NCBI RefSeq assembly: GCF_040938485.1 | Contig: NW_027271809.1 | Location: forward strand, 992,001-1,056,000 | Reading direction: 5' to 3' | Source of the DNA: Diadema antillarum | Lineage: Eukaryota | Length of the DNA stretch: 64,000 nucleotides | Shown here: piece after piece, positions 16,201 to 24,400 of the stretch | How the letters are laid out: the number at the start of each line of letters is the position of its first letter | How positions within the stretch are numbered: the stretch's first letter is position 1 | Program-made: the position numbers

Positions 16201-19200
16201 ACATATTTGTACATTAATGAATTGTGAATATTTTTGAATGATGTCGACTAAATTGATATTGCAAAATAAACAGATGAATTGTGAAAATTCATTAGAAATA
16301 TTGCTGAAAGTGATTGGTACTTCTGGGTTAATTAACTTTATTTCTGCTCAGCGACTAATACTCTGTTGGATTCACATAAATGAGATAAGGAGATTAGGTG
16401 ATGATGTCATTCCATCACATCTTCAATTTACCTTCACATGAATTTTCTTTGATTTCATTTGAAAATTGAAAAAAGTTATGGTATCCATCACACCAATTTT
16501 TGCATTTATCCTAGAGCTGTATTCCTCACAGATTTGTCATTAGTCAAGGACGAGGGGTTTAAGATTATCAAAAGGTAAGCACAAGTCGTTAGGAACATGT
16601 ATTATTGTGACACCACCTCATTCAGTCTCAGTATTGATTGTGCCCAAAATCACTTTTTTTTTTGGGGGGGGGGGTCTGATAATACTAACGTTAGTGAAAT
16701 TATAACATGTTATTTAACTGCTTCCATTTTTAATTGTTTTTTTTTTTTTGTCAACAGATTGCACAACACGTACTACTGACACTGCCCTGATATTTTGAAA
16801 TCAACTAAAATGTTTTCCTATTGAGTCCAACCAGTGTGTTTAATATCTAACATTAGCTCTTTGTACAGTAGCTCACCTTATACATATCGAGACTAAAAAA
16901 TGACTTGTGTGAGATGTTCCTTATGCACATAATTATGCACTTGATTATGGAATGATATATGCTTGTCAGCTCGCTTATAACGGTGTACCATCAATACTGA
17001 AGAAGACCTGCTTTTGGGCAATTCCGCAGTTAGGTGGACATGACATGGATAAAAGAAATGTGCCTCTTTATCTTACTCTTTAATTTAGGTATCAACTAAT
17101 GCCATGGATGTTCACCAATCACTAAGGTCTTTCAAATTCAGTAGATTTTATATTTCATATTCATTGATTTTGCGAGATCTAAAACCATCATTTAAAATGT
17201 ACATGTGGGACTGGGGATACTGAAATTCACTTAAATGCAAATTACAGGGGGTTGCTTTGAAATTTTTTCCTCAAATTTTTGCTAAAAGGTAAAAGATGAA
17301 TACATTTAAATACTCCAGAAGTCATGTGACATTTTGTTGATTACAAAAGGGTGAAATGACCTGCGGAATTACTCCGGACAAATGTAACGTTACTAACCGT
17401 AACGTTACTAACCATGCATTTGGGGTCTAGCTAATAAATCATCGGTCGAACTGCTAAAAATATTTGTGTGAACATTTGTCATGACGCAATAATTGAAATT
17501 AATGCAACACTTTGTTTTAAGTAACTTGAAATTTTGCGCACTTTTTGTTTCAAGACATTGATTTTTTTGTCATGTCCTTTTTTCGTAACGTTACTAACCA
17601 GCCCTTTTAGTTGCCATAGCAATTCTAATATTCATTGGATTGTACTCATTCTTTTCTATCCCTTACAAAAAAGTACCATGGTTTTACCATGGTAATACCA
17701 TGGTATGGTAATGAACCATGGAAACCTGGTAATTTTGCCCTAGTAAAACCATGGTACATTACCATGGTATTACCATGGCAAAATACCATGGTATTACTGC
17801 TCTTACCATGTACCATGGTATATTACCATGGTATTACTGTGCTTACCAAATACCATGGTACCGGTACCATGGTACAATACCATGGTATTTCTGAGGTGAA
17901 ATTACCATGTACTGTGGTGATTTGACCATGGTTTTACCATGGTATTACCATGGTATTACCATGGTAAAATTACCATGATATTACAATTTGAAAAGAAAAA
18001 TAACATTAGTGATTGTGTATTTCCAGCATGCAGTACTAGTATGTTACCTACTTAACATGGCCTCGCATCGCATACACCTGTTTCTACATTATTGTACAAG
18101 ACCTACAACCTACTCTACACAGGTCTACCTATCTGTATACCTAGAGTATACTTCCTATTCCTAGATACATTGCTAGTGTATCAGTTCTTTATATATGGGC
18201 TGATATCTGAAAAGATTTAAGGCATGGTTACTAACTACATGTCATACATAATATTAGTCCTATCAAAATATGAATATGCATTGTTATAACACAAGTTAAA
18301 ATAGTTGGTAACAAAAGAGAAATTTCCCAACATACTTCAAAGTTGAAACCCAGACTATATACTTTGGGTTTTTATGTCTTTTATCAATTTTCTCTCCTTT
18401 TGCATGTTAAATGCTCTCTCATGAATATTCATGAGCGATACAGAAACCAAGTCAAAACAAGGATCGTGCAACTTGAATCAACTTGTGTTACATTTTCCAG
18501 TTGGGTAGATGAGGTTTAAACTGCATGGGAAGAAGTCAGTTGTGTTCGTGGATATATTAGTACTAACCGGGTGTTTGCACTCACCCACACCCACACACAC
18601 ACACAAGCACACACATACACACATACAAACATTCACACATATACTAAATACAGGATGTACATTTATTACATGAACGTACCGGTATAATATTTTGGGTCGT
18701 ACTTGGAATTTGTATGAGATAAAACACAATGTGAATTAGTTCCAAAACAAATGAACTGTTATATATAAAGAATTAATTAGTTTGCTTATTTTTAACGGGC
18801 CGGGCTTATTTGGCTATAAATGCTAAAATTTGCATTTTGGGAGGGAATTTTGCCTCACCCCCCCCCTCCCCCCCCACAAGATCTTGACCATTAGTATTAC
18901 GATCGTTATAGCGAAATTTGGCACGTGTTACAACCACATTGTAATCTACAAAATTATGTCTTATATGTCTTAAGAACTTTTTTTGATTGTCAATTTCTAA
19001 TTTTAATTCATCAATTAATTATTTGTGCAAATTAGGCCCAACATCTTATTTTAGCCCAATTAAAAGCATTAAGAGTCTATTTCTTAATTATTTGTAAGTC
19101 TGTTTTTACATGTTTAAAGACTGTATGCATCACACATTAAAGGACTTCCAAAAGCCATTTTTTTAATGTATATTGTTTTTGGAGTTTCAAATGTATTTCT

Positions 19201-21473: not shown

Positions 21474-24400
21474 CATCATCATCATCATTATTATTATCAC
21501 CAGTACTACTATGCTACTACTATTACGTGTGTTATTATTAACTCACTCATCACAGTTTGATCCATTTGTTCAAACTGGAGTCAGCTATGTTTTCTCAGTG
21601 TACCAGTCCATTCCATCGCTTTCAAGTGGAATCAACTGGTAAATCTGCCAGTTGTGTCTTATAGTCAATATCAATACAATTATTAAGGGCCCGTTTATGT
21701 CCAGCTGTATCTATACAGGAATCGGGTAGTTGATATTTCAGTATGACACTTTATTCCGTTTCTTGCAATTGGAATCCAGTGGTGAATCTGTAGGTTATGT
21801 CATTAAATTCTAATTGGTAGACAATTGCGCAGTTTATTTCATTTGTTTCAGTCTGTCAGTTGGAATGAAATGTTAGTTTGGAGTCAACTTGTCTAAGTGG
21901 AGTCAACTAGTGAATCTGCCAGTTGAGCGGCAGGTTTTCCAGTTGGTACAAATAAAACTTCATAATCAATGATTTAGAGCCAGGCCATATATTCAGCTGG
22001 AATTGATTGGTGTTTTTCAGAGTGTGCCAGCTCATTCAATTTAGTGTCAGCTGGAATGGTGTGAGTTGGTATTAATTTTCATCTTTAACTGTATGGTAAT
22101 TCACACCATGGTAATGTGAACGAGTATCGGCCTACTTCCAGTTTGCAACTATTTGAACAAGTTGGGTCAAACGGATAGCTATAATGGGACCATTTTTTTC
22201 TTGTGATACCAGTAGAGAATGTACCTTTTTTGTCATTATTTGACATTTAAAGGGAGTATACAATACTGGACGAGATGAGGATTCAGCTTGTAACGTTTTG
22301 CGAGATATTTAGAAACCACTCTTTGAAATGGTAAAGAGCAGAAGAGGACTCAAACGTTTATTTAATGAAAACAGGCTGAGAAATGACTGAGATATCTAAA
22401 AACAAATTAAAACAAAGAGCTCCTAGTGAAAGATGGGGCCTGTCAATTTCATTTTGATTTTTTTTTTTGGGGGGGGGGGAAGGGATTGGTAATCTCAGCC
22501 ATTTCAAGACGAATTTTCTTCAAAACGTTGAATCCTTCTTGAAATTACAGCTGTACATGCTCTTTCATATTTCATAAGAGGTTTATCATCTGAATGAAAA
22601 AAAAAAGTTATAAATCTGAATCCTCATCTCAACCAGTACCTACTGTACAATCCCTTTCAGCTATAAGAATATCATAATTGATATTTTGTTGTTGAACCAC
22701 GGTATCACCATGGGTATTTTTGTGTACCTTTAGAAATACAGAAGATAACATAAAGACTATATATGCTGCGGTACAATTAAAGACCCTGTGGTTGTAGTAC
22801 ATGGTATGATGGTTATTATATGGTATCTCCATGGTTATTCTATGGTACAAGTAGGCCTAGTAGTGCCATAACCGTGCTATGGTATGATGGTTATTACATG
22901 GTGTATCCATGGTTAATTAGTGCAGAGATACTGAGGAAATGCCCTATATACCATGGTTATTTTATGGTACAAGTGGTAATACTATGGTGACGCCATGGTA
23001 TGATGGCCATAACCCGGCATCACCATAGTTATTTTATTGTACCTGTATAGTTATACCAGGCAAATACAGTAGATGGCATGATTTTTTCATGGTACTGGTA
23101 GTAATACCATGGTAGTGCTATGGTATAAAAATTATAACATACTATTACTATGGTTATTTTGTGGCGCCTATGGTAAGACCATGGAAATACCATAGACTTC
23201 ACGGTTATTCTATGGTATACGTATCAGTACCATGGTTGTGTCATGGTAATGATAGTTTACCATGGTTTTTCTGTGGTATCACCATGCATCACCATGGTTT
23301 TTCTGTGGTACTCATAGTAATACCATCGATACCATGGTTTTACTATGGCAATTGAGGTTTTACCATGGTTTTTCTGTGGTATCACCATGCATCACCATGG
23401 TTTTTCTGTGGTACTCGTAGTAATACCATCGATACCATGGTTTTACTATGGTAATTGAGGTTTTACCATGGTAATACCTTAAATTTCATGGTTATTTTTT
23501 GTAAGGGATATCATAGACCTAGGAAGGATGAACATGTTTTAAAATGATTTTGACTTGAAATGAATAAATGGTGATTTAGTAGTTAAAATAAATATCTAAA
23601 TTTCTTTAAATGTAACGTTACTAACCGCGGAATTGCCCTTTTATCACGGGGTTTCGGTGTCCGGTTGCAAATGAAATGGAGGAAATTTTGTTATTATTGC
23701 CTTCCTTCGACGACTTTTGTGAGATGTTCCTTATGCACATAATTATGCACTTGATTATGGGATGATATGATATGCTTGTCAGCTCGCTTATAACGGTGTA
23801 CCATCAATACTGAAGAAGACCTGCTTTTATCACGGGGTTTCGGTGTCCGGTTGCAAATGAAATGGAGGAAATTTTGTTATTATTGCCTTCCTTCGACGGA
23901 GACCGGAGAAGACAAGTTGCCAAATGAAGACAGACACGAAGTAATTGCCCCCGGGGATACCGCGCTGTTTTGACATTTGAGACGCCCTGCACGATCGAAA
24001 ATACCCGCTCGCTGCTGTTTCTTCGGAAAAGGTCAACAAGGCATTTTGTGGGCGCCGATTTCTCCGCAATCACAGGTGCTTGTCGACTGGACTCACGCAC
24101 GACGTACGAGCCTGCGTGTTTGGCGAGAGTTTACCGCAATCGCTGTGCGTCTTGTCGACCTTGAACGCTCGGTAAATCTGTTGCTTTTGATTTACATTTT
24201 GCCAAAGAAGTCACATGCCGTGGGCAGATAGTAATATGGTGCTTCCAGATTTTCCTAAGTTTGTTTGGGACAACTGCAAGCCCAACAATGACTTCCAGTT
24301 CATACCTCATTGAAATACACTCCTACTACCTGAAATACTTAGAACAGGTGCCCTTTATTGTTCTATAGATATTCGCCTATGTATACCTTTTTGAACTGAC

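What the first reader, a model, noticed from the sequence alone, without database searches (positions are those of the whole stretch)
16902..23898. 6.6 kb transposon sitting next to a copy of its own empty target site
The order is X-TTTT-[element 17016-23638]-TTTT-Y-X'-TTTT-Y'. Y and Y' are identical over 70 bp. X' differs from X by a couple of substitutions and a 3-bp TGA insertion. The second unit (23712-23898) shows the pre-insertion state, which fixes the element ends and a 4-bp TTTT TSD without outside data. GRG termini with a 4-bp TSD would fit Sola2, but the family is not established. Either a ~186-bp tandem duplication preceded or accompanied insertion, or the assembly joined a filled and an empty haplotype, meaning the insertion is polymorphic and recent.
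Basis: partly seen in the sequence, partly recalled or inferred. Interest (0 to 1): 0.68.

Follow-up and report, generated by a model that had tools for sequence, protein, structure and literature searches.

The report
Transposon beside its empty target site
A 6.6-kb non-coding cut-and-paste DNA transposon in a sea-urchin genome sits in one copy of a small 186-bp tandem duplication, so the neighbouring copy shows the uninterrupted target site; this is a tidy but ordinary transposon insertion whose family remains unassigned.

Summary
Window 17016-23638 (6623 bp) has 18-bp terminal inverted repeats (17 of 18 match), found nowhere else in the window. TTTT flanks it on both sides. With the element removed, 16902-17015 plus 23643-23712 aligns end to end with 23712-23898, differing by 2 substitutions and one 3-bp indel. 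The second unit therefore shows the empty site and fixes the ends and a 4-bp duplication.

The element is non-autonomous: its longest open frame is 128 aa and 0 of 19 frames match Pfam. It carries family-specific subterminal motif arrays and two nested TTAA-flanked MITEs. The host is a sea urchin, since a window protein is 100% identical to a Diadema antillarum protein. It is not human.

The Sola2 assignment is not established. A 4-bp AT-rich duplication fits Sola2 but also AcademX. No eukaryotic DNA collection was available, so copy number, other duplications and an autonomous partner stayed unchecked.

A real tandem duplication is more likely than a joined filled/empty haplotype, because the species' published assemblies are HiFi string-graph assemblies. 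The artefact is not excluded (about 0.2). This is a new member of a known kind, of low to moderate interest.

The parts
16902..17011 (.). X: left flank of duplication unit 1
   Evidence: Aligns to 23712-23824 with 2 substitutions and a 3-bp indel.
17012..17015 (.). Left copy of the target-site duplication, TTTT
   Evidence: Read directly. The empty site has a single TTTT.
17016..23638 (+). Non-autonomous TIR DNA transposon, 6623 bp
   Evidence: Bounded by the terminal repeats and the duplication, and absent from the paralogous unit. Of the 23 frames of at least 60 aa overlapping 16900-23900, the longest is 128 aa. The 19 that lie within the element gave 0 credible Pfam matches.
17016..17033 (+). 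Left 18-bp terminal inverted repeat
   Evidence: one of only 2 matches in the window.
17362..17376 (-). Internal inverted copy of the terminal-repeat core AATTCCGCAG
   Evidence: AATTCCGC occurs 3 times in the window, all inside the element: 17020 (+), 17363 (-), 23627 (-). Sequence read.
17384..17413 (+). Two tandem copies of GTAACGTTACTAACC; a third is at about 17585-17599 and a fourth abuts the right terminal repeat at about 23612-23626
   Evidence: GTAACGTTAC occurs 4 times in the window, all in the element. Also seen by TRF and as family D11.
17650..17990 (.). Left subterminal array of the palindrome TACCATGGTA
   Evidence: TACCATGGTA: 14 of 14 window occurrences are in the element. ACCATGGT: 26 of 27. 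Also.
19338..19906 (.). Nested hairpin MITE flanked by TTAA (19334-19337 and 19907-19910)
   Evidence: 169-nt arms, 87% complementary. DNA fold -179.8 kcal/mol, z = -29.9. The TTAA flanks were read.
20609..21927 (.). Internal degenerate repeats (TGGAATCAACTGGTAAATCTGCCAGTTGTG type)
   Evidence: Families D6, D8, D13, D14 and D17.
22246..22657 (-). Nested TTAA-type MITE, a divergent copy of the family at 7646-8044 and 58296-58692
   Evidence: About 70% identical to both other copies, which are 90.5% identical to each other. Alignment and flanks.
22780..23500 (.). Right subterminal array of (T)ACCATGG(T) motifs, including a 103-bp unit repeated 2.1 times
   Evidence: (D1, D4, D5, D7). Mirror-image match of 17650-17680 with 23487-23517 (I6).
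23621..23638 (-). Right 18-bp terminal inverted repeat
23639..23642 (.). Right copy of the target-site duplication, TTTT
23643..23712 (.). Y: right flank of unit 1. The G at 23712 is shared with the start of unit 2 (1-bp junction microhomology).
   Evidence: Identical to 23829-23898. The junction was read.
23712..23898 (.). Unit 2 (X'-TTTT-Y'): the uninterrupted, empty target site, with TTTT at 23825-23828

Best explanation
The feature is a non-autonomous class II (cut-and-paste, TIR) DNA transposon of 6623 bp in a sea-urchin genome.

How it works (inferred): a transposase supplied in trans by an autonomous relative elsewhere would recognise the 18-bp termini (core AATTCCGC) and the subterminal arrays of TACCATGGTA and GTAACGTTACTAACC. 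It would excise the element and integrate it through cuts staggered by 4 bp, which after repair give the TTTT/TTTT duplication.

Target (shown): the insertion lies in one unit of a genuine, young tandem duplication of 183/186 bp, formed by a non-homologous junction with 1 bp of microhomology. The second unit keeps the empty site.

Most likely order (inferred): the duplication came first and the element then inserted into its first unit.

Shown versus inferred:
- Shown: the ends, the duplication, the empty site, the lack of coding capacity, and the element-specific subterminal motifs.
- Inferred: trans-mobilisation, the role of the motifs as binding sites, the order of events, and that the duplication exists in the animal's DNA.

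The superfamily is unresolved. Candidates with a 4-bp duplication and non-TTAA, non-TGT ends are Sola2 and AcademX.

The confidence of 0.45 is for the whole statement, including 'real duplication' and 'duplication first'. That it is a TIR transposon with these ends and a 4-bp duplication I hold at about 0.95.
For: Ends:
- The terminal repeats match at 17 of 18 positions and are unique in the window; 0 of 100 shuffles reached 2 matches.
- The excised flanks align continuously with unit 2 through a single TTTT.

Coding capacity:
- No frame longer than 128 aa.
- 0 of 19 frames gave a credible Pfam match: best E = 0.0025, below the gathering score, in a low-complexity frame.

Element-specific motifs:
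- TACCATGGTA: 14 of 14 window occurrences are in the element.
- ACCATGGT: 26 of 27.
- GTAACGTTAC: 4 of 4.
- AATTCCGC: 3 of 3.
- The element is about 10% of the window, and the two arms have a mirror-image layout (I6 and others).

Real duplication:
- The junction has 1-bp microhomology (G at 23712).
- A second, older arrangement of the same kind lies 2 kb upstream: A-B-A'-[1.4 kb]-B' at 14738-16532, 89-91% identical. That is too divergent to be allelic.
- A window protein is 100% identical to a protein named for Diadema antillarum.
- That species' published assemblies are hifiasm HiFi assemblies reported without gaps (PMC13511894, section 2.5).

Superfamily:
- A 4-bp AT-rich duplication is reported for Sola2 (PMC3627910, passages).
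- A 3-4-bp duplication is reported for AcademX (PMC10045372, passages).
Against: - Only one copy could be seen, so neither family membership nor consistency of the duplication is shown.
- A search with the 98-aa frame over the left array found no relatives: 5 candidates, 0 scored. This is a weak test.
- The two units differ by 3 events in 186 bp. At the species' reported 2.52% heterozygosity, 4.7 differences would be expected between alleles, and P(3 or fewer) = 0.31. The data therefore fit two alleles as well as two paralogues.
- All 3 differences lie in the first 58 of 186 positions (P about 0.03, post hoc). Simple post-duplication drift does not predict this.
- The first published assembly kept both haplotypes, was patched with nanopore reads from other individuals and was polished with short reads. 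Its mean HiFi read length was 6.8 kb, about the size of the element (PMC13511894, section 2.5 and Table 2 passage). A local join error is therefore conceivable.
- The element carries two nested MITEs, one only 70% identical to its relatives. If they inserted at this locus, the element would be old rather than recent.
Confidence: 0.45

Rival explanations
1. Same transposon and a real duplication, but the opposite order. The insertion was already polymorphic, and a non-homologous unequal exchange joined a filled chromosome (after Y) to an empty homologue (before X'). The SNPs, the 3-bp indel and the presence or absence of the element between the units would then be inherited allelic differences, not later mutations.
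For: One event explains every difference between the units. The amount of difference fits the reported 2.52% heterozygosity: 4.7 expected, 3 observed, P(3 or fewer) = 0.31 (PMC13511894 abstract). The junction has 1-bp microhomology. The paper reports many heterozygous insertions and deletions of at least 1 kb in this species (section 3.5).
Against: The sequence does not distinguish this from duplication-first. Exchange between homologues at a non-homologous point is rarer than sister-chromatid or replication-slippage duplication (established knowledge, not tested here).
Confidence: 0.2
2. Assembly artefact. The animal is heterozygous, with one filled and one empty allele. Contig ends or a patch from the two alleles (or from another individual's reads) were placed end to end with an unrecognised 186-bp overlap. 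There is no tandem duplication in the DNA, and the insertion is simply polymorphic.
For: Divergence between the units is at the allelic level. The first published assembly of the species retained both haplotypes (84.4% duplicated BUSCOs), was patched with RagTag using nanopore reads from other individuals and was polished with Racon (PMC13511894 abstract and section 2.5). An element would stop an aligner from seeing the overlap to the left of Y.
Against: There is no N run at the junction; the nearest is 1.8 kb away at 25679. The paper reports zero gaps, so the N runs are masks rather than joins. A HiFi string graph needs kilobase overlaps, not 70 bp (knowledge of the method, not tested). The element end, Y, X' and Y' lie within 300 bp and would sit inside single HiFi reads. 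An older structure of the same topology 2 kb upstream, 89-91% identical, cannot be allelic, so real small duplications do occur here. I cannot show which assembly the window comes from.
Confidence: 0.2
3. The duplication was made after the insertion by error-prone replicative repair with two template switches. Synthesis ran through X-element-Y, switched back to the start of X at a 1-bp microhomology, copied X, then jumped across the element between the two CTTTT copies and continued into Y and beyond.
For: Both switch points have microhomology: G at 23712, and CTTTT at 17011-17015 and 23638-23642. All three sequence differences lie in the 58 bp just after the first switch point. That is what error-prone synthesis near a breakpoint would give (recalled from the copy-number-variant literature, not looked up).
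Against: It needs two switches, one of them exactly at the element's ends across 6.6 kb, with only 18-bp terminal repeats to bring them together. The clustering test is post hoc (P about 0.03). There is no precedent that I checked.
Confidence: 0.05

Closest known systems
Sola2 (Sola superfamily) non-autonomous elements
   Same: 4-bp AT-rich target-site duplications (PMC3627910, passages) and short terminal inverted repeats.
   Different: No Sola2 transposase or remnant is present. Pfam has no Sola model (PMC5751038, passages), so remnants could be missed. The GRG criterion could not be verified in any paper held. No terminal match to a classified family could be tested.
AcademX lineage of Academ transposons
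   Same: 3- or 4-bp target-site duplications (PMC10045372, passages). These are typically long elements: a mean of about 5.6 kb in bivalves (PMC10294476, passages).
   Different: No nuclease or transposase frames. The Academ terminal consensus is unknown to me, and the paper is not held.
Sola1
   Same: 4-bp duplication, and terminal repeats that begin GG (PMC3845634, Table 1 passage).
   Different: The Sola1 hallmark target is AWWT (PMC3845634, passages). TTTT does not fit it.
piggyBac, and the TTAA-type MITEs in the same window
   Same: 4-bp duplication and cut-and-paste TIR architecture.
   Different: piggyBac has 5'-CC..GG-3' termini (PMC10045372, passages), and I recall its target as TTAA. 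Here the ends are GGG..CCC and the target is TTTT. By contrast, the two nested MITEs are TTAA-flanked.
Tandem direct duplications made by alternative transposition of maize Ac
   Same: A transposon lies next to a tandem duplication of flanking DNA.
   Different: As I recall that model, the element sits at the junction between the duplicated segments. Here it sits inside one unit, and the junction is element-free. I saw only the search listing (title and start of abstract) for PMC3744419.

Membership tests
Class II TIR (cut-and-paste) DNA transposon | Terminal inverted repeats at both ends | tested here: met
   18 bp, 17 of 18 matching, the only 2 matches in the window; 0 of 100 shuffles reached 2.
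Class II TIR (cut-and-paste) DNA transposon | Target-site duplication of fixed length, absent from the empty site | tested here: met
   TTTT on both sides and a single TTTT in the paralogous empty unit.
Class II TIR (cut-and-paste) DNA transposon | Transposase gene (autonomous member) | tested here: not met
   Longest frame 128 aa. 0 of 19 frames had a credible Pfam match. Hence it is non-autonomous.
Class II TIR (cut-and-paste) DNA transposon | Several copies in the genome with the same ends | not testable with these tools
   No eukaryotic DNA collection was on hand. There is no second copy in the window. The protein-level proxy was negative.
Sola2 | Sola2-type DDE transposase | tested here: inconclusive
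   No long frame. Pfam lacks a Sola model (PMC5751038). A non-autonomous member would lack the transposase anyway.
Sola2 | 4-bp, AT-rich target-site duplication | tested here: met
   TTTT. Criterion from PMC3627910, passages.
Sola2 | 5'-GRG termini (a recalled criterion, not verified in print here) | tested here: inconclusive
   The ends are GGG...CCC. The criterion was found in no held paper (0 papers), and Bao 2009 is not held.
Sola2 | Repbase rule for non-autonomous elements: same duplication length and termini aligning at positions 1-11 (1 mismatch allowed) with a classified family | not testable with these tools
   The rule is from PMC4455052, passages. No Repbase or Dfam library was on hand.
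Sola1 | AWWT target preference | tested here: not met
   The target is TTTT. Criterion from PMC3845634, passages. Only one insertion was seen.
piggyBac | 4-bp duplication with 5'-CC..GG-3' termini (TTAA target recalled) | tested here: not met
   The ends are GGG..CCC and the target is TTTT. Criterion from PMC10045372, passages.
AcademX | 3-4-bp target-site duplication | tested here: met
   4 bp. Criterion from PMC10045372, passages.
AcademX | Academ transposase with XPG-type nuclease; family termini | not testable with these tools
   No frames in this copy. The source paper is not held.
Ginger2 | 4-5-bp duplication with TATA preference | tested here: not met
   The length fits, but the target is TTTT, not TATA. 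Criteria from PMC3845634 and PMC10045372. Only one insertion was seen.

The most novel reading that the evidence does not exclude
The element belongs to an undescribed lineage of cut-and-paste transposons, neither Sola nor Academ. Its transposase would read AATTCCGC termini plus arrays of the palindrome TACCATGGTA and make 4-bp duplications in T-runs. The lineage would still be active in Diadema, so this insertion would be a segregating polymorphism caught next to its own empty site.
Probability: 0.08. Interest if true: 0.5.

Novelty: new member of a known kind. Interest (0 to 1): 0.25.

Why it matters
The adjacent empty site defines a transposon's exact ends and duplication length without any outside data. 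That makes this copy a good seed for curating one of the many unclassified repeat families of this sea urchin: 29.96% of the assembly is unclassified repeat according to the PMC13511894 abstract.

If the insertion is polymorphic, it would mark a recently active DNA transposon in a species of conservation concern.

If the duplication is an assembly error, it would be a concrete example of a small false duplication at a heterozygous insertion in a haplotype-rich assembly.

None of these outcomes would change current understanding of transposition.

Tried and rejected
Coding and RNA searches:
- Pfam on the 19 frames of at least 60 aa within the element gave nothing credible.
- Rfam gave 0 matches over the whole window at gathering thresholds.
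- A tRNA scan of 14000-26000 gave 0 genes, so there is no tRNA or snRNA target.

Looking for other copies:
- A terminal-repeat search with up to 3 mismatches and a window self-BLAST found none outside the element.
- A homologue search with the 98-aa frame across the left motif array found 5 word-sharing candidates and 0 scoring. This is a weak proxy for copy number.

Literature:
- The 12-nt terminal-repeat core appears in 3 papers, all unrelated by title (two gastric-cancer drug studies and a Drosophila embryo imaging paper); none was opened.
- 'Sola2' plus 'GRG' returned 0 papers.
- Not held: Bao et al. 2009, Yuan and Wessler 2011 and Kojima 2020. Supplements were closed and might contain terminal-repeat alignments for Sola2.

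Rejected readings:
- Helitron for the 1.4-kb upstream insert: no TC...CTRR ends (the ends criterion is recalled).
- A 5-bp CTTTT or a 3-bp TTT duplication: either makes the terminal repeats asymmetrical.
- The Ac-type alternative-transposition model: the element is not at the duplication junction.

Not used or not done:
- Genome contigs, phages, plasmids and E. coli hold no sea-urchin DNA and were not searched.
- No structure or complex prediction was run, because there is no protein to fold.
- The N runs (25679-25814, 32154-32296, 40122-40295) were left as they are.
- The exons of the NUDT12-like gene were searched one by one. The joined model was not built.
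Full report
**What is there**

- An 18-bp terminal inverted repeat lies at 17016-17033 and, on the opposite strand, at 23621-23638. The two copies match at 17 of 18 positions.
- With up to 3 mismatches allowed, these are the only 2 matches in the 64-kb window. Chance expectation was 0.04, and 0 of 100 shuffles reached 2.
- TTTT flanks the element on both sides (17012-17015 and 23639-23642).
- When the element is removed in silico, the joined flanks align without a break to 23712-23898, through a single TTTT at 23825-23828.
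- That alignment has only 2 substitutions (16907 G/T, 16951 A/G) and one 3-bp indel in a GAT/ATG-rich patch.
- The 75 nt from the C before TTTT to the junction G are identical in both units.

The second unit is a paralogous empty site that fixes the element's ends. A 5-bp CTTTT duplication is formally possible, because the last base of the element and the base before the left TTTT are both C. Only the 4-bp reading keeps the two terminal repeats symmetrical.

**Anatomy of the element**

- It does not code for a protein.
  - The longest stop-to-stop frame is 128 aa.
  - 0 of 19 frames of at least 60 aa gave a credible Pfam match.
  - Pfam has no model for Sola, Academ and several other superfamilies (PMC5751038, passages), so eroded remnants of those could be missed. 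An intact transposase is excluded.
- Both arms carry arrays of short motifs that are specific to the element.
  - TACCATGGTA: 14 of 14 window occurrences are inside it.
  - ACCATGGT: 26 of 27.
  - GTAACGTTAC: 4 of 4.
  - The terminal-repeat core AATTCCGC: 3 of 3. The third copy is inverted, 347 bp inside the left end.
- The arrays lie at 17650-17990 and 22780-23500 in mirror-image order.
- I read these motifs as subterminal transposase-binding sites, by analogy with other TIR elements. This is an inference.
- Two MITEs are nested inside the element.
  - A hairpin element lies at 19338-19906, with TTAA on both sides. Its arms are 169 nt and 87% complementary, and its fold z-score is -29.9.
  - A TTAA-type MITE lies at 22246-22657. 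It is about 70% identical to the copies at 7646-8044 and 58296-58692, which are 90.5% identical to each other.

**Host and context**

- The window is eukaryotic. It holds:
  - NUDT12-like NUDIX exons at 6765-7532 and 12654-13220;
  - a rhodopsin-type receptor at 35639-36940;
  - two galactosyltransferase genes;
  - an EF-Tu-type GTPase fragment.
- The galactosyltransferase at 55326-56978 is 100% identical to an NCBI protein named for Diadema antillarum. The next hits are other sea urchins. The contig is therefore sea urchin, not human.
- The element lies in a stretch of about 22 kb with no recognisable gene. It sits directly beside a CpG-rich patch at 23639-24300 (CpG observed/expected 1.13-1.16).
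- Rfam and tRNA scans found nothing.

**Real duplication or artefact**

The published genome paper for the species (PMC13511894; abstract and sections 2.5, 3.5 and 4.1) reports:
- hifiasm assemblies from HiFi reads, with 2.52% heterozygosity;
- a first assembly that retained both haplotypes, was patched with nanopore reads from other individuals and was polished with short reads;
- zero gaps, so the N runs in the window are masks. I left them alone.

Points for an artefact:
- The units differ by 3 events in 186 bp. That fits allelic divergence: 4.7 expected, P(3 or fewer) = 0.31.
- An element would hide the overlap from an aligner.

Points against an artefact:
- There is no N run at the junction.
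- The right end of the element, Y, X' and Y' lie within 300 bp and would sit inside single reads.
- String-graph joins need far more than 70 bp of overlap (knowledge of the method, not tested here).
- An older arrangement of the same topology lies 2 kb upstream: A-B-A'-[1.4 kb]-B' at 14738-16532, 89-91% identical. It cannot be allelic.

I put the artefact at about 0.2. I cannot show which assembly the window comes from.

**Order of events**

The junction between the units has 1 bp of microhomology (G at 23712), which indicates a non-homologous origin. Three histories fit.
1. Duplication first, then insertion into unit 1. This is my preferred reading (about 0.45).
2. A polymorphic insertion first, then unequal exchange between a filled and an empty homologue. 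This explains all the differences between the units as inherited alleles (about 0.2).
3. Two template switches during error-prone repair, one of them across the element at CTTTT (about 0.05). This would explain why all 3 differences fall in the first 58 of 186 positions (P about 0.03, post hoc).

The window alone cannot separate these histories.

**Which family**

- A 4-bp AT-rich duplication is reported for Sola2 (PMC3627910, passages).
- Per PMC10045372 (passages), 3-4-bp or 4-bp duplications are also reported for AcademX, Ginger1/2 and piggyBac, with wider ranges for PHIS and MuDR relatives.
- The Sola1 hallmark target is AWWT, and Ginger2 prefers TATA (PMC3845634, passages). TTTT fits neither.
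- piggyBac ends are 5'-CC..GG-3', whereas here they are GGG..CCC.
- That leaves Sola2 and AcademX as candidates.
- The 'GRG termini' criterion is recalled only.
  - A search for Sola2 plus GRG returned 0 papers.
  - Bao 2009, Yuan and Wessler 2011 and Kojima 2020 are not held.
  - Supplements, which may hold terminal alignments, were closed.
- The Repbase rule for non-autonomous elements requires the same duplication length and termini matching at positions 1-11 (PMC4455052, passages). It could not be applied without a repeat library.
- The 12-nt core of the terminal repeat occurs in 3 papers, all unrelated by title; none was opened.

**What stayed unchecked**

- No eukaryotic DNA collection was available.
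  - Genome contigs holds only prokaryotes.
- A protein-level proxy, the 98-aa frame over the left array, found nothing: 5 candidates, 0 scored.

**Verdict**

- This is a well-delimited, non-autonomous TIR DNA transposon with a 4-bp duplication.
- It sits in one unit of a small, probably real, tandem duplication.
- The Sola2 label is a reasonable guess, not a result.
- It is a new member of a known kind, of low to moderate interest.

Noticed in passing
window 7646-8044, 58296-58692, 22246-22657: A MITE family of about 400 bp with roughly 28-bp terminal repeats (AGGGACTGTACAGTACTGG...), flanked by TTAA. This suggests a piggyBac- or Kolobok-type target. Two copies are 90.5% identical to each other, and a third, at about 70%, is nested in the transposon.
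   Followed up: partly
window 19334-19910: A near-perfect 570-bp hairpin (foldback) MITE inside the transposon, with TTAA on both sides. DNA fold -179.8 kcal/mol, z = -29.9.
   Followed up: partly
window 14738-16532: An older structure of the same topology as the finding. The unit A-B (14738-14930) is followed by A' (14930-15024, 89% identical), a 1.4-kb insert, and then B' (16432-16532, 91% identical). The insert shows no terminal repeats or target duplication, and it holds a tandem repeat of about 200 bp (15346-15798) with T-run/G-run motifs.
   Followed up: partly
window 23639-24300: A CpG-rich patch (GC 0.40-0.50, CpG observed/expected 1.13-1.16) directly right of the insertion. It may be a promoter or 5' end of an unrecognised gene. 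No frame with a family match was found there.
   Followed up: partly
window 25815-26026: A 213-nt stretch that matches its own reverse complement at 91%, directly after the masked run 25679-25814.
   Followed up: no
window 15380-15400, 15570-15600, 15790-15800, 16655-16680, 22458-22480 (and, as C-runs, 18860-18880 and 20005-20030): A recurring T-run followed by a G-run (T8-12 G10-13). It looks like part of a dispersed repeat common in this genome.
   Followed up: no
window 43340-44620 and 55326-56978 (minus strand): Two single-exon galactosyltransferase (PF01762) paralogues 11 kb apart. The family appears to be expanded in sea urchins, judging by the many Diadema, Lytechinus and Strongylocentrotus hits.
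   Followed up: no
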